From Escherichia phage vB_EcoM_3HA11, in sequence record MN342150: 64,000 nt of DNA. One strand, 5' to 3'. The position numbers and the translations under genes are program-made. Shown in pieces: positions 1,074 to 39,146 of the stretch (the first letter of the stretch is position 1; the number at the start of each line of letters is the position of its first letter). The notes under the pieces were generated by a model. That model made no database searches, had not been told where the DNA came from, and saw nothing but the letters and a program-made list of their open reading frames with translations.

Positions 1074-3461
1074 ATGGCCATCCCATCTTTCTTGAACTTT
1101 CTTGAAGAGTCTAAACAATTAGACGAAGCGTTTAACTCATCCCCGTATGAATTGACTTTCGGCAAGAAGAACGCTGGCGACATTTTCTTCACATTTGTTG
1201 ATGAAGACGAAAAAGAATTCCGTATTCAATTCTATACCCCACAAGGTCTAGGCAAGAATGTTCGCCAAGTCTTTATCGGTCAGAAGCGTGGTTCAACCTA
1301 TCCAGACGCAATCGGTCGTTTCAAAAACCCAATGCGTGTCATCGCATCCATGATCGAAGCGACTAAACAATTCATGGCGACACCGCTGGGTAAAACCATT
1401 GATGGGTTTGCGATTAACTTCTCCAAGAAAGCTCTAGAACGCGGAACGACGTTACTCCCAAAAATTATTCGTCAATCTGGTCTGAAGCAGAAACTCAACG
1501 TCATGGATCTGACTTATACCCCAATCCCTGACCGCGCCTTCGTATGGGTTGTGCGTAAAGGCAAGGATCCTGCTCAGGTATTTGATGGTCCGAAAATGAA
1601 AGGTGTCACATGGGATGATCCGGACAAAGTCGGTGACGTTCCTGACCAGGCTGCTCGTGACGCCGCACTACAAGGTGACATGGATGATTTGAGCCAAGCC
1701 GTAAATGCCGATTCTCGCTGGATTCTGACCAAAGCTGATCATACTCAGCCTATGCTTGTCTGGTCTGGTAAAGAACGTGGGCGGACTATTACCGCCAATA
1801 TCGCACCTCACGCGAATGAACCTGGTGTGTATGCTGGTAGTATCATGAACGAGAAACGGATCCGCGCTCAATCCCCAGACGCTATTGTACGCCAACTGGG
1901 ATTACCGCAGATCCCTCTGAATATTCTGAATGATTTCACCAAGCAGTCGTCCATCTTCTGGAAAGAGATGACGGGGGATTCTGGAAAAATAGACATGCAG
2001 ACTCTTCCAAAAACCGGTTCTATGGATGATCTGCGCAACCAGGGTTATATCGCCCGCATCTTGGGCATCGTTGATACATATGCTCCTCAGCAAGTCGGCA
2101 TGTATGCTGGTGAAAAATTGGCTCGGGTTGGTGCTGGCAAATATCGAACTTCTGGCGGGTTGGATATTCAAGTCTATTTTTGGGGGATTGTCAACAGCAA
2201 ACTCTCTGTAGAAGTGGTTTCTGATTTATCTGGCAATGAACAGCTGATGCTGGAAGGCGACGTGAAAAACGCGGCTTTTGAAATCGTCAGTGCGATATCC
2301 CGTGCTGCTGATTCTCAGTTCAACGGTGAAGTGGAATGTCGTGTTGTTCCGATCAACGGTGCCCCATACCCGATTCAAAAGATTTCCCGTTCCCAGGGTT
2401 ATTCTTATGTCGATTGTATTTCGTTTACTTTGAAGATCGCCGATGCATTGTTAAATCGATTTACTCTGGGTAAGGCAGTCAAACTCGATCTGATAAAAGA
2501 GTTCCCTCGAACGACGTTTATTGTTCGTTATGACTGGCGCGGCAAAGATACTCTGATGGTCCAGTCTTCTGATGGGAAGACTATCTTCGGCGAAATCAAC
2601 ACAAATTCCAGTGATAACGCTGTCATCACTGCGAACCTGAAAGCCCCAAGCAATGCGAAGATATTTGGTGAAACCGTTCATGGGTTCTCTGTGGCTTGGG
2701 ACTTCCAGTTCCCTGCGGGTAGCCAGCTGCAAGCCGCACGGTTCGTTACGAACGTGACTTACGACTTCGATCGTAATAAGGCCAACATCACGACCATGCT
2801 GACAGAAAATGGCCGAAATGTAGTCAATAGCCGCGGATATGACATTCAGTTATCTGTCAAGTCTGTGCAAGATGCTTTGAATGAGACTTCACAACGCCTG
2901 AAAGACGCTGCGGCTCAATTGAGCCATCTCAGTTCATCAAACTATAACCCGAACAATCTGTTCCTGAATGATATCACCGTCAGTAAGTTTGGTGCAATTA
3001 TGTTCCAAGACAAAGATCTGGCACAGTCCAGAAACCGCACGGTAGTCATTGATGCTTTGGCTCGGGCGAAAGATCAGGTCGCTGGTGGTAAGAATGCAGG
3101 TGACCTGGCCACCTATGCCGGATCCATTCGTGACAGCGCTCCTAATGGACGAGATCTGGATTGGCAGGTATACACAGCCAGTAATGGTACAGTTCTGAAT
3201 GTTGCTTGGGATATCACTTTCCGTCGCAACACAACCGAAGGCGCATATCGTGAATTCAAAGATCAGATCAACCGTGCCAACCAATACCTGCAAACGGTAT
3301 ACAACGACGCGAAATCTAAAGGCTATAATCCCACCGAGCCAAATCTCATGACTATTGAACGCGCTCGTCAATCCGACGAATGGGCTATGAGTAATGGTGA
3401 TAGTGCATACAGTGAATATGAACAATCGCTGGGTGGTAATCTCCAGATCCGTCTGAAATAA
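1074..3461 (+). CDS. large hypothetical protein (795 aa) with capsid-targeting-sequence-like N-terminus; candidate packaged/injected protein
   Basis: Long ORF with SD AGGAG; N-terminus SFLNFLEES resembles the F-x-x-F-L-x-E pattern of T4 internal-protein targeting peptides. Confidence 0.55.
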   Translation: MAIPSFLNFLEESKQLDEAFNSSPYELTFGKKNAGDIFFTFVDEDEKEFRIQFYTPQGLGKNVRQVFIGQKRGSTYPDAIGRFKNPMRVIASMIEATKQFMATPLGKTIDGFAINFSKKALERGTTLLPKIIRQSGLKQKLNVMDLTYTPIPDRAFVWVVRKGKDPAQVFDGPKMKGVTWDDPDKVGDVPDQAARDAALQGDMDDLSQAVNADSRWILTKADHTQPMLVWSGKERGRTITANIAPHANEPGVYAGSIMNEKRIRAQSPDAIVRQLGLPQIPLNILNDFTKQSSIFWKEMTGDSGKIDMQTLPKTGSMDDLRNQGYIARILGIVDTYAPQQVGMYAGEKLARVGAGKYRTSGGLDIQVYFWGIVNSKLSVEVVSDLSGNEQLMLEGDVKNAAFEIVSAISRAADSQFNGEVECRVVPINGAPYPIQKISRSQGYSYVDCISFTLKIADALLNRFTLGKAVKLDLIKEFPRTTFIVRYDWRGKDTLMVQSSDGKTIFGEINTNSSDNAVITANLKAPSNAKIFGETVHGFSVAWDFQFPAGSQLQAARFVTNVTYDFDRNKANITTMLTENGRNVVNSRGYDIQLSVKSVQDALNETSQRLKDAAAQLSHLSSSNYNPNNLFLNDITVSKFGAIMFQDKDLAQSRNRTVVIDALARAKDQVAGGKNAGDLATYAGSIRDSAPNGRDLDWQVYTASNGTVLNVAWDITFRRNTTEGAYREFKDQINRANQYLQTVYNDAKSKGYNPTEPNLMTIERARQSDEWAMSNGDSAYSEYEQSLGGNLQIRLK

Positions 3462-3508
3462 ACCATAGCCCCTTCGGGGGCTAAATACATCAAAATCCTT
3501 AGGAGATC

Positions 3509-4081
3509 ATGATGAAACCGTTTATCGAATATTTTAAAGAACAAGCCCAGCAGCCGCAAACTCATGGCGGTATACAAGGCAAAAGTGTAACCATCACTAA
3601 ACAAGCCGATGGAACACAATGGTGCTCCGGCGCTACCGTGACCCAGATCACTCCTGACAATCAGGCCGATGTCTATAACCTGGAATTGACTAATGGCAAC
3701 ACCACTAAAGTGAAACTGACGCCGGACCAGGTTCATGCGGTTTCTGTGGGCAAAGATGTTGTTGCCGTTCATGACGGATACGAATTCTTCTTTGGTAAAG
3801 ACGCCAGCAAAGGTCAGGTCACAGAATCCTATGCTCAAGAACTAGCGAATATGGATAAGATGATCGGTAAAGCGCTGGGCGTTGGCAAATCTCGTAAAAG
3901 CGGTCGTACAGAGTTTGAATATTCCGGTATTCCTGGTATTGGAAAACCTGTCGCAATCGACTTCGGCGGCGAAGACGATCCGTATGTGATCGTCACAGTC
4001 GCTGGTAAACAGCATGACATCAGTAAGGGAAAAACCCTAGCTGTGGACATTGCCAAATATATCGGCGTGAAACCTGTCTAA
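3509..4081 (+). CDS. hypothetical protein, weak capsid-targeting-like N-terminus (KPFIEYFKEQA)
   Basis: ORF with SD AGGAG 6 nt upstream; follows a hairpin. Confidence 0.5.
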   Translation: MMKPFIEYFKEQAQQPQTHGGIQGKSVTITKQADGTQWCSGATVTQITPDNQADVYNLELTNGNTTKVKLTPDQVHAVSVGKDVVAVHDGYEFFFGKDASKGQVTESYAQELANMDKMIGKALGVGKSRKSGRTEFEYSGIPGIGKPVAIDFGGEDDPYVIVTVAGKQHDISKGKTLAVDIAKYIGVKPV

Positions 4082-4090
4082 GGAGGTTGT

Positions 4091-4330
4091 ATGAAAGGGT
4101 TCCCGGATTTCCTGAAAGAGGCGAAGGTTGACCATCGCCGCCTTGGACAACAAGGTATGTACGACATCACTGATGTTGGCCGCCCCGAAAAAGGCGAACT
4201 GATCGACTACTATGATCGTAACGGGGACAAACATCAGGGGAAAGTGAAGTCTGTGAACGCACAGAATATCATGACTCTGACAAACACCAGCACTGGTGAA
4301 ACAGTCAAACTGACTCTGATTAAGCCATAA
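4091..4330 (+). CDS. internal head protein-like small protein (N-terminus MKGFPDFLKEAK)
   Basis: SD AAGGAGG; N-terminal 11 residues match the T4 IP capsid-targeting pattern MKTYQEFIAEA. Confidence 0.55.
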   Translation: MKGFPDFLKEAKVDHRRLGQQGMYDITDVGRPEKGELIDYYDRNGDKHQGKVKSVNAQNIMTLTNTSTGETVKLTLIKP

Positions 4331-4360
4331 AAGAAACCCCGCTTCGGCGGGGTTTTTGTT
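4331..4360. terminator. bidirectional rho-independent terminator (ACCCCGC-TTCG-GCGGGGT flanked by A/T runs)
   Basis: Perfect GC stem with UUCG-type loop between convergent genes 4091..4330 (+) and 4359..4964 (-). Confidence 0.6.
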
Positions 4361-4964
4361 ACTTCACGTACATACAGACCTGGACCTTCTTGCCTTTGTC
4401 GTTCTTGACTTCTACTAATTTAGAAGCGCCATTCAGCTTGACGACAGTCCCCTTTTCCTTCCCACCACTTGGCAATTCATATTCAATCTCTTCACCAGGA
4501 GAAGGCATGCCAGCGCTTGGCCCCATAACAGCAGAGATCTTGTAACGTGCCATACCAGGGCGACCACCTTTGAAGGCATACCAGCCACCTTCTTGCATGT
4601 CTTTCCACTGTTTGTTACCGTCAACAACAATGGATGGATTACCGAAACCGGCCTTGATACCCAGCAAGTCAATTGTCTTTCCCGACTTGTTGTATTTTAC
4701 GGCAGTGTCACCATCAAACTTGTCCAGCATCTGAGTACTGGCGAACTGCCCGTCTTTGATACCAGAAGCAGCGATAACGTCCTTGGCGTTTGTCAGGACA
4801 ATCTTGCGCCCGTCTGGGGTTTCGAAAGTCACCTTATCACCAGAAACATCGGCGTGGAGGAACGTACCCGCAACGTCTTCTGTTGATTTACCGATCTTGT
4901 CAGACTTGATATGTGCAGACATCGGCGGCGCGGCTTCGGTCAAAAAGTCTTGAAAAGTTTTCAT
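4359..4964 (-). CDS. internal head protein-like protein (N-terminus MKTFQDFLTEAA)
   Basis: N-terminus nearly identical in pattern to T4 IPI/IPII/IPIII targeting peptide, with an L-x-E site as cleaved by prohead protease. Confidence 0.6.
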   Translation of the reverse strand: MKTFQDFLTEAAPPMSAHIKSDKIGKSTEDVAGTFLHADVSGDKVTFETPDGRKIVLTNAKDVIAASGIKDGQFASTQMLDKFDGDTAVKYNKSGKTIDLLGIKAGFGNPSIVVDGNKQWKDMQEGGWYAFKGGRPGMARYKISAVMGPSAGMPSPGEEIEYELPSGGKEKGTVVKLNGASKLVEVKNDKGKKVQVCMYVK

Positions 4965-8356: not shown

Positions 8357-9151
8357 ATGGCCATTCTAAAACTTGGCAACCGAGGTTCTGAAGTCAAAGC
8401 GCTTCAACAAAGCCTCAACAAAATCGGTTTCTCCCTTACAGCCGATGGCATATTTGGTAAAGCAACAGAGAATGCTGTCAAATCCGTTCAGGCAGGTGCT
8501 GGATTGGTTATTGATGGTATTGCTGGGCCAAAGACCTTCTATGCTATCCGCAACTCTGGAGACGCTCATCAGGAACATCTGACCGAAGCGGACTTGGTTG
8601 ACGCAGCACGTGAACTTGGTGTTGAGCTGGCCAGTATGAAAGCTGTGAATCAGGTAGAATCCCGTGGCACGGGTTTTACCAAAACCGGCAAGATCAAAAC
8701 TCTGTTTGAGCGCCACATCATGTACAAAAAGGTGACGGCCAAATTCGGACAAGCAAGAGCCAATGCTCTGTACCAACTCTACCCAACATTGGTTAACCCC
8801 AATTCTGGCGGGTATATCGGCGGAGACGCGGAGTTGGAACGCCTTCAGGGTGCAATCGCCCTTGACGAGGACTGCGCTTACGAGAGTGCTTCCTACGGCC
8901 TATTCCAGATCATGGGGTTCAACTGCCAAATCTGTGGATATCCAAATGCCAAAGAGATGTTCACTGATTTCCTGACTGGTGAACGCGCTCATCTTCTGGC
9001 ATTTGTCAAGTTCATCAAGGCTGATGCCAATATGTGGAAAGCCCTGAAGAACAAGAATTGGGCCGAGTTTGCTCGTCGGTACAATGGTCCGGCATATGCG
9101 AAAAACCAGTATGATACTAAACTGGCGGCAGCATACAAGAGTTTCTGTTAA
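8357..9151 (+). CDS. endolysin: peptidoglycan-binding domain plus N-acetylmuramidase-like catalytic domain
   Basis: N-terminal repeat LQQSLNKIGF...DGIFGKATENAV / DGIAGPKTFYAI typical of PG-binding domains; C-terminal ASYGLFQIMGFN muramidase-type block; SD GGAGG before the ATG at 8357. Confidence 0.75.
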   Translation: MAILKLGNRGSEVKALQQSLNKIGFSLTADGIFGKATENAVKSVQAGAGLVIDGIAGPKTFYAIRNSGDAHQEHLTEADLVDAARELGVELASMKAVNQVESRGTGFTKTGKIKTLFERHIMYKKVTAKFGQARANALYQLYPTLVNPNSGGYIGGDAELERLQGAIALDEDCAYESASYGLFQIMGFNCQICGYPNAKEMFTDFLTGERAHLLAFVKFIKADANMWKALKNKNWAEFARRYNGPAYAKNQYDTKLAAAYKSFC

Positions 9152-15015: not shown

Positions 15016-15429
15016 TCAATTTGTCCGTTTCAACCATATCGTGTCTGTTATCGGCTCTGGGTTGTTGACCACATAGAACGTGATGGTTACGCCCAGAGAA
15101 TGATAATCGTCAGACAATGACACATCAACTGATTGTATCTCCGCTCTCGGTTCAAATAAAGCAATCGCGTCTTCAACTTTGTTTTTAACATCAACCTGAA
15201 TTGTGGGATTCGTATTTTCCCCCAGCATGGTATACAGCCCAGCCCCGATACTTGGGTATGTCGGCCAATCCCCAACTGTTGTCATCACGATATTTCGTAC
15301 GGATTGCAACACGGCATAGACACCTGTTTTCTTTGTGACATCTTTGGTGACCGGATGCATGCCAAACTTCAGGTCAATGTCCTTGTACTCTTTCATGTTA
15401 ATCCCCTTTGGATATTGCCTCTCCGGCAC
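15016..15429 (-). CDS. 25: baseplate wedge protein (gp25/GPW family)
   Basis: 137 aa, pattern typical of gp25-like lysozyme-fold baseplate proteins; directly downstream of the gp5-like gene. Confidence 0.6.
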   Translation of the reverse strand: MPERQYPKGINMKEYKDIDLKFGMHPVTKDVTKKTGVYAVLQSVRNIVMTTVGDWPTYPSIGAGLYTMLGENTNPTIQVDVKNKVEDAIALFEPRAEIQSVDVSLSDDYHSLGVTITFYVVNNPEPITDTIWLKRTN

Positions 15430-15460: not shown

Positions 15461-17086
15461 TCATGCGTCTTTACCACCAAAGTTGCCGCCATTATCCTCC
15501 AGTTCCGGTTTTATATCAATTGGACCAGGACCAGAAGTAGATACTGGAGTTGCCCCAGCGCGTGATGCAGCACGACCAGCACCTTCAGCATATTTGATGT
15601 TGCCTTCAATAGTCTGCGCCACCGACAACTTATCACAAACTATTTCACTAGCCAGTATTTTAGGCACTTTTAAAGTATTGGAAACTTCCAACATCTCACA
15701 GATGATACGCATCACGTTTTGCGCTTGAATTTCGGCCAGCTGTGAAAATTTCATCAACGCCGTGCCAGCAACCACATTGGAGTAGTTCGATGAATGTAGA
15801 TGATAGACCTCACCTGTCTTGCGCTGAACTTCAGTCCCACCAATGGTCAGGTTGTGATCACGACCAACATAGTAACGTTTGTCAAACATCGTCAGATCAT
15901 AATGATCTTTGACTGATTTATTGACCACGTCCCCGTCAGGAAGCATCTGCTTATAAGACCCCGAGGAGTGCATCCAATGGAGACGTTCCCCGCCTGGTGT
16001 GTCATCAACCTCCATAATATGCCCCGACCGAGATGCCATGACATTGTTGTAAGGATAACGAGACCCGCCAGCAGAAGGAACCGACACCTCTCCTGTGTTA
16101 TCAATATCTTGAACACGCCCAGAAGGAGGCGGAGTTTCCTGAACTTTTGGTGTACGATCAGGGATTGGCTCAGACCATTTACCATTTTGTTGCGCAGGAG
16201 CCGCCGATGCTGTCGTAGCAGGACCAGGCCAACGATAACCCAACACAGATGAGCGGCTGAAGCGACTCACCTTCACAGAATCTGATTGGTTGCCTCCAAT
16301 ACACCAAACATAATTGGCATCGAATTTCTGCACGAACGCAACGTGTCCGAATGTTGGGTTGTTGCCACGCCGGAATACAACAACAGCGCCGTAACGGGGT
16401 TCTGACAAAGGGGAACCCCATTGCAAATATGAACGAGCCAAAGCCGAGCGCGTTGAAGTGTATCCTGCTTGGATCAACACCCATCCCACAAATGAAGCGC
16501 ACCAGCTGACTTCATCTTCCGAAGCGCCCAAAGATGTTGTCTTGTGATATTCCAAAATCCTTGGGTTATTATTGAATTTGCCAGAATATTCTTTGACACC
16601 TAATTCACCACGAGCCACTGTCATCCATTTCTCGGGATCATAACCGTCCACAGGCGGTTGAGGTTCTGGTTGTGGGTCGTCTTCAATCTTGACAGGAACA
16701 TTTTCAACGGCGTTATATTTCTGTCTTTCTATAGATTGAACAACCTGGCCCAGCGCCAACGGGTTTGTGTCTGAACCATCCGTTGGTGTCGCCGCTGGCC
16801 AAACCCAGGCGATACGAATATTTTGGTATGCTTCATCCAAAGCAAATCCCATAACATCCGACCCGACTGTAATACCCGTTGGAGACCAGCCTAAACCTGC
16901 CGAGGAGGCGTTAGATGCTGGCATGAGCATTTTACCCCAAGGCAATAATTCGGTAGGTAAGAGAGTGGTATCTTCCGTGTGTACACCATAGATGCGCACA
17001 GCGACGCGCCCGTTCTGGTCGGGATCATTCACGTCTTCAACGCGCCCGTAAAACCAACGCATGTTGTCTAACATATTGAAACCCAT
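15461..17086 (-). CDS. 5: baseplate central hub/spike protein (gp5-like) carrying a CHAP/NlpC-P60-type peptidase domain
   Basis: N-terminus FYGRVEDVNDPDQNGRVAVRIYGVH resembles the gp5/VgrG OB-fold; central Cys...His block (CASFVGWVL ... GHVAFV); C-terminal repetitive beta-rich region. Confidence 0.6.
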   Translation of the reverse strand: MGFNMLDNMRWFYGRVEDVNDPDQNGRVAVRIYGVHTEDTTLLPTELLPWGKMLMPASNASSAGLGWSPTGITVGSDVMGFALDEAYQNIRIAWVWPAATPTDGSDTNPLALGQVVQSIERQKYNAVENVPVKIEDDPQPEPQPPVDGYDPEKWMTVARGELGVKEYSGKFNNNPRILEYHKTTSLGASEDEVSWCASFVGWVLIQAGYTSTRSALARSYLQWGSPLSEPRYGAVVVFRRGNNPTFGHVAFVQKFDANYVWCIGGNQSDSVKVSRFSRSSVLGYRWPGPATTASAAPAQQNGKWSEPIPDRTPKVQETPPPSGRVQDIDNTGEVSVPSAGGSRYPYNNVMASRSGHIMEVDDTPGGERLHWMHSSGSYKQMLPDGDVVNKSVKDHYDLTMFDKRYYVGRDHNLTIGGTEVQRKTGEVYHLHSSNYSNVVAGTALMKFSQLAEIQAQNVMRIICEMLEVSNTLKVPKILASEIVCDKLSVAQTIEGNIKYAEGAGRAASRAGATPVSTSGPGPIDIKPELEDNGGNFGGKDA

Positions 17087-17429
17087 TAGTCAATTAGAAT
17101 CATGGGTTATTTATGGCGGGGATTTGAAATCTGTCGAATAGTAATATTATAGGAAGCTCTGCTTCCGTTCAACTTTATTCTTTTCGTTTCTACTCGCTGA
17201 AGCTCGTAACACCGCCTTGACAGGCAGTCCCATTCCAATGCCATGGAGGCATAAAGGCGAGGAAAATACTGTACACCTCAGAACATGCGTAGAAAAGGAT
17301 TATTTTTGCTTCAAAACAAATTCAAACCCCAATTCACACAACACTTACTTCAGCAACAACGGTGTTATAGCAATTTAAGGTTAAATGTTCCTGTCTTAAC
17401 CTATAAAACAGGTAAGCAAAGAAAACCCC

Positions 17430-17457
17430 ACATTACGTGGGGTTGGAAGATTTCTTG
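17430..17457 (-). terminator. rho-independent terminator on minus strand (CCCCACGTAATGTGGGG plus T run)
   Basis: Hairpin downstream of the 17594..18397 gene. Confidence 0.55.
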
Positions 17458-17593
17458 GACAAACGTATCTTTAGTGTCTCTGTTAGCAAATCAAGATGCC
17501 AAGGCATCGACTCGCTTATTTCAAATATGCTATAGCCATGTGCCTTTAATTCGTCACACATCACAAAGTAGGAGAGTAAATCAATTTCAAAAA

Positions 17594-18397
17594 TTAAATG
17601 AAAATTTCAGTGACACTGTTAAATTTGACTTCATGTTCTTTCCCACACGAAGGACATTTAATTTTCGTCGCGTAACGGATACGAGGAATCTTTTTAAAGA
17701 AATCGTCGGATATATCTTGAACAATCTCAGATTCAATATTTTCCCCCACCCATTTAACAAATTCATCTTTGACACGTTGACGTTCTTTAGCAACATCAGG
17801 TGCTATGCCAGGCTCTGCCGGATTCTCTACTTTCCAAACCTGACCATCATCGTCATACAAACAATCAATAAATGTCGCGATCATTTGCTCCACAGATGAT
17901 GCTTCGTTGAGCACTGAGGCGTCCGAGAAGGACGGTTGACGCATCTTGATGTGATAGCCACCAGGGAGGTCAAATGTTTCCCTGAAGCCTTCTGGGGACA
18001 CGCATTTCACTTGGTTGAGGGGGATCGGTAAAACAAGTTCTTGACCACATTCTTTAAGGCCAGAAACTGGTTCTTCACCTTCATTTGTGTCGGATGGAAC
18101 TTTGTTGTTACATTTGTATCGTATCTTCATGACCTCGCCGATAGATATACAGCGCATCTTTAAAAATACTTCTTCAGTAACACCGATTGGCAGTTTACTA
18201 AAGGGAACCCCAGCGTCAACACAACTATCAAACAGTTGCTCCAGCGTCGCTACACGTTCACTCATAGGAGTGTTCGGATCAGCAACCTGAAGTAGCATGG
18301 TCTGTTGCCCAGCTGTGAAAGCGCGGTATTTAATCACCGTCGGCCAGAAATCACTTTTGTGTGTTCTCTCAGTTTTGGGCAATGATGGTAAATTCAT
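17594..18397 (-). CDS. late-expressed hypothetical protein with C-terminal zinc ribbon (CPSCGKEH); possibly baseplate/assembly
   Basis: Start moved to ATG at 18397 (SD GGAGAT); TATAAATA late-promoter motif about 25 nt upstream on the minus strand. Confidence 0.5.
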   Translation of the reverse strand: MNLPSLPKTERTHKSDFWPTVIKYRAFTAGQQTMLLQVADPNTPMSERVATLEQLFDSCVDAGVPFSKLPIGVTEEVFLKMRCISIGEVMKIRYKCNNKVPSDTNEGEEPVSGLKECGQELVLPIPLNQVKCVSPEGFRETFDLPGGYHIKMRQPSFSDASVLNEASSVEQMIATFIDCLYDDDGQVWKVENPAEPGIAPDVAKERQRVKDEFVKWVGENIESEIVQDISDDFFKKIPRIRYATKIKCPSCGKEHEVKFNSVTEIFI

Positions 18398-18424
18398 AAT
18401 GTATCTCCACGGTATATTGTAACC

Positions 18425-18433
18425 ATATTTATA
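18425..18433 (-). promoter_or_regulatory. T4-type late promoter core TATAAATA (minus strand)
   Basis: Exact TATAAATA on minus strand upstream of the ATG at 18397. Confidence 0.45.
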
Positions 18434-18446
18434 ATGAGGACCGAAA

Positions 18447-18971
18447 ATGCACGCGTTCTGTTTCAGTAAAGTTGGAGAACAACTTACCATTAATTATCCG
18501 GATACAAATACGGATTTCTTTGTATTGCTAACGGATTTCGCAAATAAATTGGGGATCAAGAATATCGCCATGACTGTGGACGATATGAAATTTGGTCGTC
18601 TGGGTGTAAAAGATTTATTGAATTACGGATTCAACGTAATCATCGTCGATCAGACATACAGCCCAATTGACGAGGAAGATGTTATTCCAGTTTGGGTTCA
18701 ACGAGACATAAACACTCTGGATAAGCATTATCCCGATTGTGTCATCATTGGCGAATTAATACCATATTTTCATAAACGTCGTCGGCTTGAATCAATTAAA
18801 AGTTATTTTCAAGATAGCGATGACGGATATAAAATGGATGTCCTTACGAGCGGTTGGGTTGTGAAGAATACCACAGGCAATGCCGACCGAATTACTTCCC
18901 GTCTTTATGAATATGTTAAAGAACGGGATTATGAACTGGAGAACAATAATGCCAAACGTAGAACGCGCTGA
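18447..18971 (+). CDS. hypothetical protein
   Basis: ORF with SD GAGGA. Confidence 0.45.
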   Translation: MHAFCFSKVGEQLTINYPDTNTDFFVLLTDFANKLGIKNIAMTVDDMKFGRLGVKDLLNYGFNVIIVDQTYSPIDEEDVIPVWVQRDINTLDKHYPDCVIIGELIPYFHKRRRLESIKSYFQDSDDGYKMDVLTSGWVVKNTTGNADRITSRLYEYVKERDYELENNNAKRRTR

Positions 18972-23194: not shown

Positions 23195-23228
23195 GATGAG
23201 GACTCCATTTAAATAATATATCTGCTGA

Positions 23229-23236
23229 TATTTATA
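23229..23236 (-). promoter_or_regulatory. T4-type late promoter core TATAAATA (minus strand)
   Basis: Exact TATAAATA on minus strand in the divergent intergenic region. Confidence 0.4.
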
Positions 23237-38483: not shown

Positions 38484-39146
38484 ATGATAACTGAGTGGGA
38501 GAAAATGCAATATGAACGTGCATTTAACGTTTATTGCATATATATGGCGATCAAGTTGCATTTCACCACCAAAGATTTTGATTATGGTCTGTATGGGCCG
38601 ATGAACAATTACAAGTTTGAAACATTCTATTCTAAACAGGGTGTGGCCAAACAATTTGCCAAACTTGCTCGTCGGTTTGAATCTTCCCAGGGTGAAGTGG
38701 TGGAAAATTATATCATCGCCAACTTTGTTAAATCACCAAAAACATGGGTGACAACATTACTCACCCGTCAGGCTCAAGAAAATTATAATGAATATCGCCG
38801 CCTGTACGATAACTTTTCATATAATTTTCTTGACCATTTTGAACGTTATATGATTCCGGAAATAAAAGAAAGAGGTGTGAACTTTATCCAGTACATCAAA
38901 GGAAATGGGAATGGTCACCCACCGTTGCTGACAGACATTATCATCAAACGTTATCCGATTTGGTTTTTGGTTGGATTGAATAAAGTGGTGGGATTTATTC
39001 ATTTGTATGATACAATACTCAAGGAAGATATTTATTGGAATTCTGAGTCGTTCTTATTGAAAAAGACTAATTCTGTGGTTCCGGATGAAAATACAGAATA
39101 CACGAAAGGAAAACTCCGTGAGCTAATCCTTGCCCACGGAATTTGA
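38484..39146 (+). CDS. 59: helicase loader (T4 gp59-like, putative)
   Basis: N-terminal NVYCIYMAIKLHFTTKDFD resembles T4 gp59 VYKLYLMIKQHMNGKYD; 220 aa. Confidence 0.45.
   Translation: MITEWEKMQYERAFNVYCIYMAIKLHFTTKDFDYGLYGPMNNYKFETFYSKQGVAKQFAKLARRFESSQGEVVENYIIANFVKSPKTWVTTLLTRQAQENYNEYRRLYDNFSYNFLDHFERYMIPEIKERGVNFIQYIKGNGNGHPPLLTDIIIKRYPIWFLVGLNKVVGFIHLYDTILKEDIYWNSESFLLKKTNSVVPDENTEYTKGKLRELILAHGI

What the first reader, a model, noticed from the sequence alone, without database searches (positions are those of the whole stretch)
15461..17086. gp5-like central spike carries a CHAP/NlpC-P60-type peptidase instead of the T4 lysozyme domain
The N-terminal OB-fold and C-terminal beta-rich region are gp5-like, but the central enzymatic domain has a Cys...His cysteine-peptidase signature (CASFVGW...GHVAFV). 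The cell-wall-piercing enzyme would then cleave peptide cross-links rather than glycan strands, a hint about the host wall.
Basis: partly seen in the sequence, partly recalled or inferred. Interest (0 to 1): 0.4.

Follow-up and report, generated by a model that had tools for sequence, protein, structure and literature searches.

The report
Phage tail spike with cysteine peptidase
This is the tail-tip spike gene of a Vi01-like Salmonella/E. coli phage. It carries a cell-wall cysteine peptidase where phage T4 carries a lysozyme, a real feature that was already published for this phage group in 2011 and says nothing special about the host wall.

Summary
ORF 15461..17086 (-), 541 aa, has three parts: a T4 gp5 N-terminal OB domain, a central CHAP / TIGR02594 (NlpC/P60-superfamily) domain, and a C-terminal segment homologous to the start of the T4 gp5 needle. 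No lysozyme domain is detected.

The window is a Kuttervirus (Ackermannviridae) genome. The protein is 99.8% identical to Salmonella phage Vi01 gp5.

Kutter et al. 2011 (PMC3184105) described exactly this for phage CBA120: a CHAP/TIGR02594 domain, flanked by gp5 regions, in place of the lysozyme. The finding is therefore already known.

- "Peptidase instead of lysozyme" is supported.
- "Cleaves cross-links" is unproven. The fold neighbours mostly cut inside the stem peptide (gamma-D-Glu-mDAP).
- "A hint about the host wall" is not supported. The hosts are the same enterobacteria that T4 infects with a lysozyme.

One small new point: in Delftia phage phiW-14 and Sinorhizobium phage phiM9 the OB+CHAP unit is a separate gene. 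In phiW-14 the break falls where T4 gp5 is cleaved.

The parts
15461..17086 (-). gp5-type baseplate central spike gene (541 aa from M1; 537 aa if translation starts at M5, nt 17074)
   Evidence: ORF list. PHROG 430, E = 1.5e-157. [quoted passage not shown] Marshall annotates the shorter start.
16793..17071 (-). N-terminal OB-fold domain (aa 6-98), expected to dock on the gp27-like hub
   Evidence: Pfam Gp5_OB at 40.2 bits. T4 gp5 chains align at aa 7-87, E about 2e-11. The model shows five strands at aa 10-96.
16640..16792 (-). Linker 1 (aa 99-149), with a short helix and a Pro/Glu-rich stretch (EDDPQPEPQPPVDGYDPEK)
   Evidence: Low pLDDT and a helix at aa 109-124. Mean identity 63% among relatives.
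16223..16639 (-). Central CHAP / TIGR02594 (NlpC/P60-superfamily) cysteine peptidase domain (aa 150-288)
16499..16501 (-). Codon of Cys196, the predicted catalytic nucleophile (WCASF)
   Evidence: Conserved in 17/17 spike homologues and 68/69 TIGR02594 proteins. It aligns with the matching Cys (conventionally the catalytic nucleophile) of CwlO and CTn1-Orf17.
16343..16345 (-). Codon of His248, the predicted catalytic base (GHVAF)
   Evidence: Conserved in 17/17 and 69/69 sequences. It aligns with the matching His (conventionally the catalytic base) of CwlO and CTn1-Orf17.
16289..16291 (-). Codon of Asn266 (GGNQS), the predicted third polar residue of the triad
   Evidence: Conserved in 17/17 and 69/69 sequences. 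Its role is inferred from its position after the next strand of the model; the geometry was not measured.
16067..16222 (-). Linker 2 (aa 289-340), Pro/Ala/Thr-rich; candidate processing or hinge region
   Evidence: T4 gp5 cleavage site S351/A352 aligns with S294/A295. The phiW-14 gene boundary between OB+CHAP and the needle falls here. Low conservation.
15779..16066 (-). gp5C-like segment (aa 341-436), homologous to the start of the T4 gp5 C-terminal needle
   Evidence: Aligns with T4 gp5 residues 384-477, E about 7e-15. 44% identical to the same region of phiW-14 gp083.
15464..15778 (-). C-terminal remainder (aa 437-541); presumed distal needle and tip, no detectable homology to T4
   Evidence: No Pfam hit. 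Monomer model is unreliable here. 58% mean identity among relatives.
17108..17115 (-). CATAAATA, a T4-late-promoter-like motif 21 nt upstream of the first ATG
   Evidence: ATAAATA occurs only 4 times in the window, all on the minus strand. Three of them lie 20-35 nt upstream of baseplate or tail genes. Its function is inferred.
15016..15429 (-). Downstream gene: gp25-like baseplate wedge / sheath initiator, probably co-transcribed
   Evidence: Pfam GPW_gp25 at 37.2 bits. PHROG 261.
17594..18490 (-). Upstream gene: gp26-like baseplate hub protein (probable start at 18397)
   Evidence: Pfam T4_baseplate, E = 1.9e-51. Marshall annotation gives 804 nt. TATAAATA plus GGAG lie before the internal ATG.

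Best explanation
The gene encodes the central spike of the contractile tail of a Vi01-like (Kuttervirus) phage, the counterpart of T4 gp5. By analogy with T4, three copies form a trimer. The N-terminal OB domains sit on the gp27-like hub at the end of the tail tube. The C-terminal part forms the needle that is driven through the outer membrane when the sheath contracts.

The middle domain is an active papain-like cysteine peptidase of the NlpC/P60 superfamily (TIGR02594 subfamily, also matched by Pfam CHAP), with a Cys196-His248-Asn266 triad. It takes the place of the T4 lysozyme. Once in the periplasm it opens a local hole in the peptidoglycan by hydrolysing a peptide or amide bond of the stem peptides. 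The most likely bond is gamma-D-Glu-meso-DAP. The tube can then reach the inner membrane.

Shown here: the domain architecture, the conserved triad, the fold, the baseplate gene context and, from published proteomics, presence in virions. Inferred: trimeric assembly, catalytic activity, bond specificity, and release of an OB+peptidase unit from the needle.
For: Architecture:
- Gp5_OB and CHAP are both above the Pfam cut-offs; TIGR02594 scores 133 bits.
- T4 gp5 chains match both flanks but not the middle.

Active site:
- C196, H248 and N266 are conserved in 17/17 spike homologues and in 68, 69 and 69 of 69 diverse TIGR02594 proteins.
- The Cys and His align with the matching Cys and His of the CwlO and CTn1-Orf17 sequences.

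Fold:
- The domain model has pLDDT 92.

Constraint: the peptidase domain is the most conserved segment across 13 full-length relatives, at 84% against 58-77% elsewhere.

Context:
- The gene lies between gp26-like and gp25-like baseplate genes.
- The homologue was detected in purified virions of Sajous1 and LIMEstone1, and in ViI as cited by Kutter 2011.

The same reading was published for CBA120.
Against: - No enzymatic assay exists for this protein or for any TIGR02594 member in the literature searched.
- The triad geometry was not measured on the model.
- The distal 105 residues have no recognisable needle repeats, and the monomer model is poor there.
- No PAAR (gp5.4-like) tip protein was found in the window by tblastn. 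A weak search of this kind does not exclude one.
Confidence: 0.8

Rival explanations
1. The domain is an N-acetylmuramoyl-L-alanine amidase. It would strip whole stem peptides from the glycan rather than cut within or between peptides.
Confidence: 0.15
2. The domain is a DD-endopeptidase that cuts the D-Ala-mDAP cross-bridge itself.
Against: Most of the top neighbours (LytE, CwlO, the T. thermophilus D,L-endopeptidase, the gamma-D-glutamyl-L-diamino acid endopeptidases) are named DL-endopeptidases. No specificity-determining residue was identified here.
Confidence: 0.15
3. The peptidase domain is an inactive structural remnant, and wall penetration is purely mechanical.
For: No direct activity data exist. 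Needle-only spikes without an enzyme are known in other contractile systems (general knowledge).
Against: The Cys-His-Asn triad is conserved across about 40-100% identity. The domain is the most conserved part of the protein.
Confidence: 0.03
4. The swap from lysozyme to peptidase is an adaptation to a peculiarity of the host cell wall.
For: None found here beyond the fact of the swap.
Against: Hosts of phages with a near-identical protein are Salmonella, E. coli O157, Klebsiella, Dickeya and Serratia, ordinary enterobacteria that lysozyme-bearing T4 relatives also infect. The phage's own endolysin is a muramidase that cuts the glycan of the same wall. gp5-OB spikes carry many alternative enzymes.
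Confidence: 0.05

Closest known systems
[quoted passage not shown] 2011, Virol J 8:430 (PMC3184105)
   Same: It is the same protein. It is 99.8% identical to Vi01 gp5, and a 537-aa form is 99% identical. The paper reports a CHAP / TIGR02594 / NlpC-P60 region at aa 150-282, flanked by the two regions that flank the lysozyme in T4 gp5.
   Different: Nothing material. This work adds the conserved triad, a confident fold model with its structural neighbours, and the split-gene relatives.
Bacteriophage T4 gp5 (PDB 1K28, 1WTH, 5IV5)
   Same: The N-terminal OB domain and the first part of the C-terminal needle are homologous. The neighbouring genes are baseplate genes. The linker after the enzyme aligns with the T4 maturation cleavage site.
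   Different: The central enzyme is a cysteine peptidase, not a GH24 lysozyme. It is not a paralogue of the phage's endolysin, which here is a PF11860 muramidase. No Gp5_C octapeptide repeats were detected. No adjacent gp5.4 PAAR gene was found.
NlpC/P60 (MEROPS C40) peptidoglycan DL-endopeptidases: C. difficile Acd24020, B. subtilis LytE and CwlO, E. coli MepS
   Different: Sequence identity is only 17-24%. The third residue is Asn in a GGNQ motif. The domain is embedded in a virion spike rather than in a secreted autolysin. It falls in the separate TIGR02594 subfamily, for which no biochemistry was found.
Cysteine-peptidase-bearing hubs and spikes of other contractile or tail machines: diffocin hub-hydrolase CD1368 (8V3W), Staphylococcus phage 812 hub C51 domain (9EUF/9EUM), phage Andhra gp10 tail-tip lysin (8EJ5)
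   Different: Those machines attack Gram-positive walls and are not gp5 homologues. Here the peptidase sits in a T4-type OB...needle scaffold in a phage of Gram-negative bacteria.
Split relatives: Delftia phage phiW-14 (ORF at L006:1970-2956, plus gp083) and Sinorhizobium phage phiM9 gp124
   Same: They have the same OB+CHAP unit. The phiW-14 unit is 36% identical, E = 2e-48, with Pfam Gp5_OB and CHAP. phiW-14 gp083 carries the gp5C-like segment and is followed by gp25.
   Different: The OB+peptidase unit and the needle are separate genes. The phiW-14 needle gene carries an additional GH19-like domain (24.4 bits, just under the cut-off).

Membership tests
T4 gp5-type baseplate central spike | N-terminal gp5 OB-fold domain | tested here: met
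   Pfam PF06714 at 40.2 bits against a cut-off of 25. T4 gp5 chains align at aa 7-87, E about 2e-11.
T4 gp5-type baseplate central spike | Central GH24 (T4-type) lysozyme domain | tested here: not met
   There is no Phage_lysozyme hit. The BLASTP alignment to T4 gp5 has no real similarity between aa ~100 and 340. The position is occupied by CHAP/TIGR02594.
T4 gp5-type baseplate central spike | C-terminal trimeric beta-helical needle (gp5C) | tested here: inconclusive
   aa 341-436 are homologous to T4 gp5 384-477, E about 7e-15. There is no Gp5_C or Gp5_trimer_C Pfam hit. The monomer model is unreliable. A trimer could not be modelled.
T4 gp5-type baseplate central spike | Encoded among baseplate genes and present in virions | tested here: met
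   The gene is flanked by gp25-like and gp26-like genes. Homologues were detected by mass spectrometry in Sajous1 and LIMEstone1 virions (literature).
T4 gp5-type baseplate central spike | Maturation cleavage between the enzyme and the needle (T4 S351/A352) | not testable with these tools
   The T4 site aligns with S294/A295 in a low-complexity linker, but the Ser-Ala pair is not conserved among relatives. This needs protein chemistry on virions.
CHAP domain (Pfam PF05257) / NlpC-P60 superfamily (papain-like clan CA) | Profile match above the curated threshold | tested here: met
   CHAP scores 40.7 bits against a cut-off of 26, aa 191-266.
CHAP domain (Pfam PF05257) / NlpC-P60 superfamily (papain-like clan CA) | Invariant catalytic Cys and His in that order, plus a third polar residue | tested here: met
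   C196 is conserved in 68/69, H248 in 69/69 and N266 in 69/69 sequences. The Cys and His align with the matching Cys and His of CwlO and CTn1-Orf17. The role of the third residue is inferred.
CHAP domain (Pfam PF05257) / NlpC-P60 superfamily (papain-like clan CA) | Papain-like alpha+beta fold | tested here: met
CHAP domain (Pfam PF05257) / NlpC-P60 superfamily (papain-like clan CA) | Peptidoglycan amidase or endopeptidase activity | not testable with these tools
   This requires a zymogram or muropeptide analysis. No published assay was found for the TIGR02594 subfamily.
NCBIfam TIGR02594 | Full-length match above the trusted cut-off | tested here: met
   133 bits against a cut-off of 70.55, covering model positions 2-132 of 132.

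The most novel reading that the evidence does not exclude
The OB+peptidase half may be a separable functional unit, equivalent to T4 gp5*. It is encoded as its own gene in phiW-14 and phiM9 and is fused to the needle in Ackermannviridae. Kuttervirus gp5 would then be processed, or hinged, in linker aa 289-340, so that the three peptidase domains are unmasked only after the needle is shed in the periplasm. In addition, the uncharacterised TIGR02594 subfamily could have a bond specificity not seen in classical NlpC/P60 enzymes.
Probability: 0.3. Interest if true: 0.3.

Novelty: already known. Interest (0 to 1): 0.15.

Why it matters
The finding illustrates that the enzyme carried on a contractile-tail spike is an exchangeable module. 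The scaffold (OB domain plus needle) is conserved, and lysozyme, lytic transglycosylase, metallopeptidase or cysteine peptidase domains are slotted in. For Vi01-like phages this has been in the literature since 2011, so the finding adds no new biology.

Its practical value is modest:
- The TIGR02594 peptidase has never been assayed, and it is a candidate virion-derived enzyme active on Gram-negative peptidoglycan.
- Many database records still call it a 'lysozyme', or transfer the gp5 name to unrelated endolysins.

Tried and rejected
- A full-length AlphaFold monomer gave mean pLDDT 49.7. It was usable only for the OB and peptidase cores, so it was not used for fold searching. The domain was re-modelled alone with a 69-sequence alignment.
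- A single-sequence search of solved structures with the domain gave nothing significant. A profile search gave only weak NlpC/P60 hits, E = 0.015-0.3. Fold comparison was needed.
- tblastn of T4 gp5.4 (PAAR) against the window gave no hit better than E = 1.6, which is uninformative.
- tblastn of the three gp5 segments against the window found no paralogues.
- Rfam on the whole window found no matches, so the ORF-free 508 bp upstream of the gene holds no known RNA family.
- Pickard et al. 2010 (ViI virion proteomics, PMC2953684) is not held. Whether the virion protein is cleaved could not be checked.
- The literature search found no cryo-EM structure of an Ackermannviridae baseplate and no biochemistry for TIGR02594.
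- I considered that Vibrio phage ICP1 also has a CHAP-type gp5, as its annotation states, and rejected it. That protein is PG_binding_1+CHAP, 238 aa, with no OB domain.

Full report
**What is there**

The window carries an uninterrupted minus-strand ORF at exactly the stated coordinates, 15461..17086, 541 aa.

Profile searches give three independent, significant assignments:
- Pfam Gp5_OB at aa 39-98 (40.2 bits, cut-off 25).
- Pfam CHAP at aa 191-266 (40.7 bits, cut-off 26).
- NCBIfam TIGR02594 across aa 154-286 (133 bits, cut-off 70.55).

[quoted passage not shown] Solved T4 gp5 chains align with aa 7-87 and aa 341-436 but not with the middle. No lysozyme or other glycosidase family is detected.

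**Where the window comes from**

The protein is 100% identical to that of Salmonella phage UTK0005. It is 99.8% identical to that of Vi01 and of many other Kuttervirus (Ackermannviridae) phages of Salmonella and E. coli O157. Fifteen kilobases around it are 98.5-98.9% identical to those genomes.

In phage Marshall the gene is annotated from the second ATG (537 aa). It lies between a gp26-like hub gene and a gp25-like wedge gene, as it does in the window.

**Anatomy**

From the alignments and models I divide the protein as follows:

| Segment | Residues | Notes |
|---|---|---|
| OB domain | 6-98 | gp5-like |
| Linker 1 | 99-149 | proline/glutamate-rich |
| Peptidase domain | 150-288 | CHAP / TIGR02594 |
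| Linker 2 | 289-340 | Pro/Ala/Thr-rich |
| gp5C-like segment | 341-436 | homologous to T4 gp5 384-477 |
| C-terminal remainder | 437-541 | no detectable relatives outside the family |

These boundaries rest.

The full-length monomer model was poor (mean pLDDT 49.7), as expected for a protein that is an intertwined trimer in T4. The peptidase domain modelled alone with 69 homologues gave pLDDT 92.1.

**Is the peptidase real and active?**

Across 17 spike-type homologues, C196, H248 and N266 are invariant. Across 69 diverse TIGR02594 proteins they are conserved in 68, 69 and 69 sequences.

A profile of the family aligns the Cys and His with the matching Cys and His of B. subtilis CwlO and the C. 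difficile CTn1-Orf17 hydrolase.

Classical CHAP domains score lower (LysGH15 at 10.5, PlyC at 8.8, the phage 812 hub C51 domain at 8.2). Foldseek agrees.

The peptidase domain is also the best-conserved segment across 13 full-length relatives: 84% mean identity, against 72% for the OB domain, 77% and 58% for the needle parts, and 58-63% for the linkers and tail. All of this argues for an active Cys-His-Asn enzyme under purifying selection. None of it identifies the scissile bond.

**Mechanism**

By homology with T4 gp5 (established knowledge of the T4 baseplate), the protein should form the trimeric central spike. The OB domains would sit on the gp27-like hub, and the needle would be driven through the outer membrane on sheath contraction. 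The three enzyme domains would then locally open the peptidoglycan.

Virion association is supported by published proteomics of close relatives. Sajous1 'tail associated lysozyme' gave 20 spectra. The LIMEstone1 gp5 homologue was detected. ViI was also positive, as cited.

Given the fold neighbours, the most likely chemistry is cleavage within the stem peptide (gamma-D-Glu-meso-DAP). An amidase or a DD-endopeptidase activity remains possible. So 'peptide bonds rather than glycan strands' is well supported, and 'cross-links' specifically is not.

**The host-wall inference**

- The hosts of phages with this protein are ordinary enterobacteria, which T4-type phages enter with a lysozyme.
- The same phage lyses the same wall at the end of infection with a glycan-cleaving enzyme, PG_binding_1 plus PF11860 N-acetylmuramidase, at 8357..9151 (+).
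- gp5-OB proteins in public data carry SLT+CHAP, Peptidase_M15_4, Peptidase_M15_3, M15_3+Phage_lysozyme2 or T4-type lysozyme in the same position.

The enzyme is an exchangeable module, not a readout of wall chemistry.

**Prior knowledge**

Kutter et al. 2011 (PMC3184105) wrote about the CBA120 orthologue. [quoted passage not shown] Some GenBank records already call it 'cell wall-associated hydrolase' or 'TIGR02594 family protein'. The finding is therefore already known. No structure of an Ackermannviridae baseplate and no biochemistry of TIGR02594 were found in the held literature.

**What this analysis adds**

The TIGR02594 module occurs in 509 phage records, but the gp5 name has spread with it by annotation transfer.
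- True relatives exist in split form. Sinorhizobium phage phiM9 gp124 is OB+CHAP only, 290 aa.
- In Delftia phage phiW-14, an ORF with no annotated feature in the record (L006:1970-2956, 328 aa) is OB+CHAP. It is 36% identical to aa 12-287 of the window protein, E = 2e-48.
- The next phiW-14 gene, gp083, carries a GH19-like region plus the gp5C-like segment (44% identity to aa 307-396). gp25 follows it.

The phiW-14 gene boundary corresponds to linker 2 of the window protein. The T4 maturation cleavage site (S351/A352) aligns with S294/A295 in the same linker. This suggests, but does not show, that OB+peptidase is a gp5*-like unit that separates from the needle. The Ser-Ala pair itself is not conserved among relatives.

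**Verdict**

The core interpretation is correct but previously published. The bond specificity is overstated, and the host-wall inference is unsupported. Interest is low.

Noticed in passing
window 17108-17115 (-), 18425-18432 (-), 23228-23235 (-), 39029-39035 (-): ATAAATA occurs only 4 times in 64 kb (10.6 expected), always on the minus strand. Three copies (CATAAATA, TATAAATA, TATAAATA) lie 20-35 nt upstream of the gp5, gp26-like and tail-tube-like genes. This resembles the T4 late promoter TATAAATA, which Kutter 2011 said had not yet been identified for ViI-like phages.
   Followed up: partly
window 17087-17593: There is a 508-bp stretch without a plausible ORF between the gp26-like gene and gp5, also unannotated in phage Marshall. 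It holds a strong terminator-like hairpin at 17424-17444 (-) just after the gp26-like gene, and no Rfam match. About 300 bp remain unexplained.
   Followed up: partly
window 17072-17086 (-): The start codon of gp5 is ambiguous. M1 gives 541 aa (the Vi01 annotation). M5 gives 537 aa (Marshall, CBA120, and most metagenomic homologues, which begin MLDN...). Neither ATG has a clear Shine-Dalgarno sequence.
   Followed up: partly
window 8357-9151 (+): The phage endolysin is PG_binding_1 plus PF11860 N-acetylmuramidase, unrelated to the spike enzyme. In T4, by contrast, the spike lysozyme is related to the lysis lysozyme (as stated in Kutter 2011). Kutter 2011 also reported that no lysin had yet been found in CBA120.
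   Followed up: yes
L006 (Delftia phage phiW-14, NC_013697) 1970-2956 and 2956-4722: An ORF with no annotated feature in the record (328 aa) encodes Gp5_OB+CHAP. It abuts gp083, annotated 'endolysin', which is in fact GH19-like plus a gp5C-like needle and is followed by gp25. This is a split gp5 with two different wall enzymes.
   Followed up: yes
L004 (Vibrio phage ICP1_2001_A, HQ641353) 2252-2968: [quoted passage not shown] It is probably an endolysin that was mis-named by transfer from Ackermannviridae gp5.
   Followed up: yes
alignment A1, columns ~760-841 (homologues P0014, P0016, P0017, P0019, P0021, P0022): The gp5 homologues of Serratia and Erwinia-type Ackermannviridae have a C-terminal extension of about 70 aa that is absent from the window protein. 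It ends in a conserved S[DN]G..WE motif. phiW-14 gp083 ends similarly (NNAGTWEES). Its function is unknown.
   Followed up: no
window 17594-18490 (-): The mechanical ORF of the gp26-like hub gene is 298 aa. The TATAAATA motif and a GGAG precede an internal ATG at 18397, which gives the 267-aa product annotated in Marshall.
   Followed up: partly
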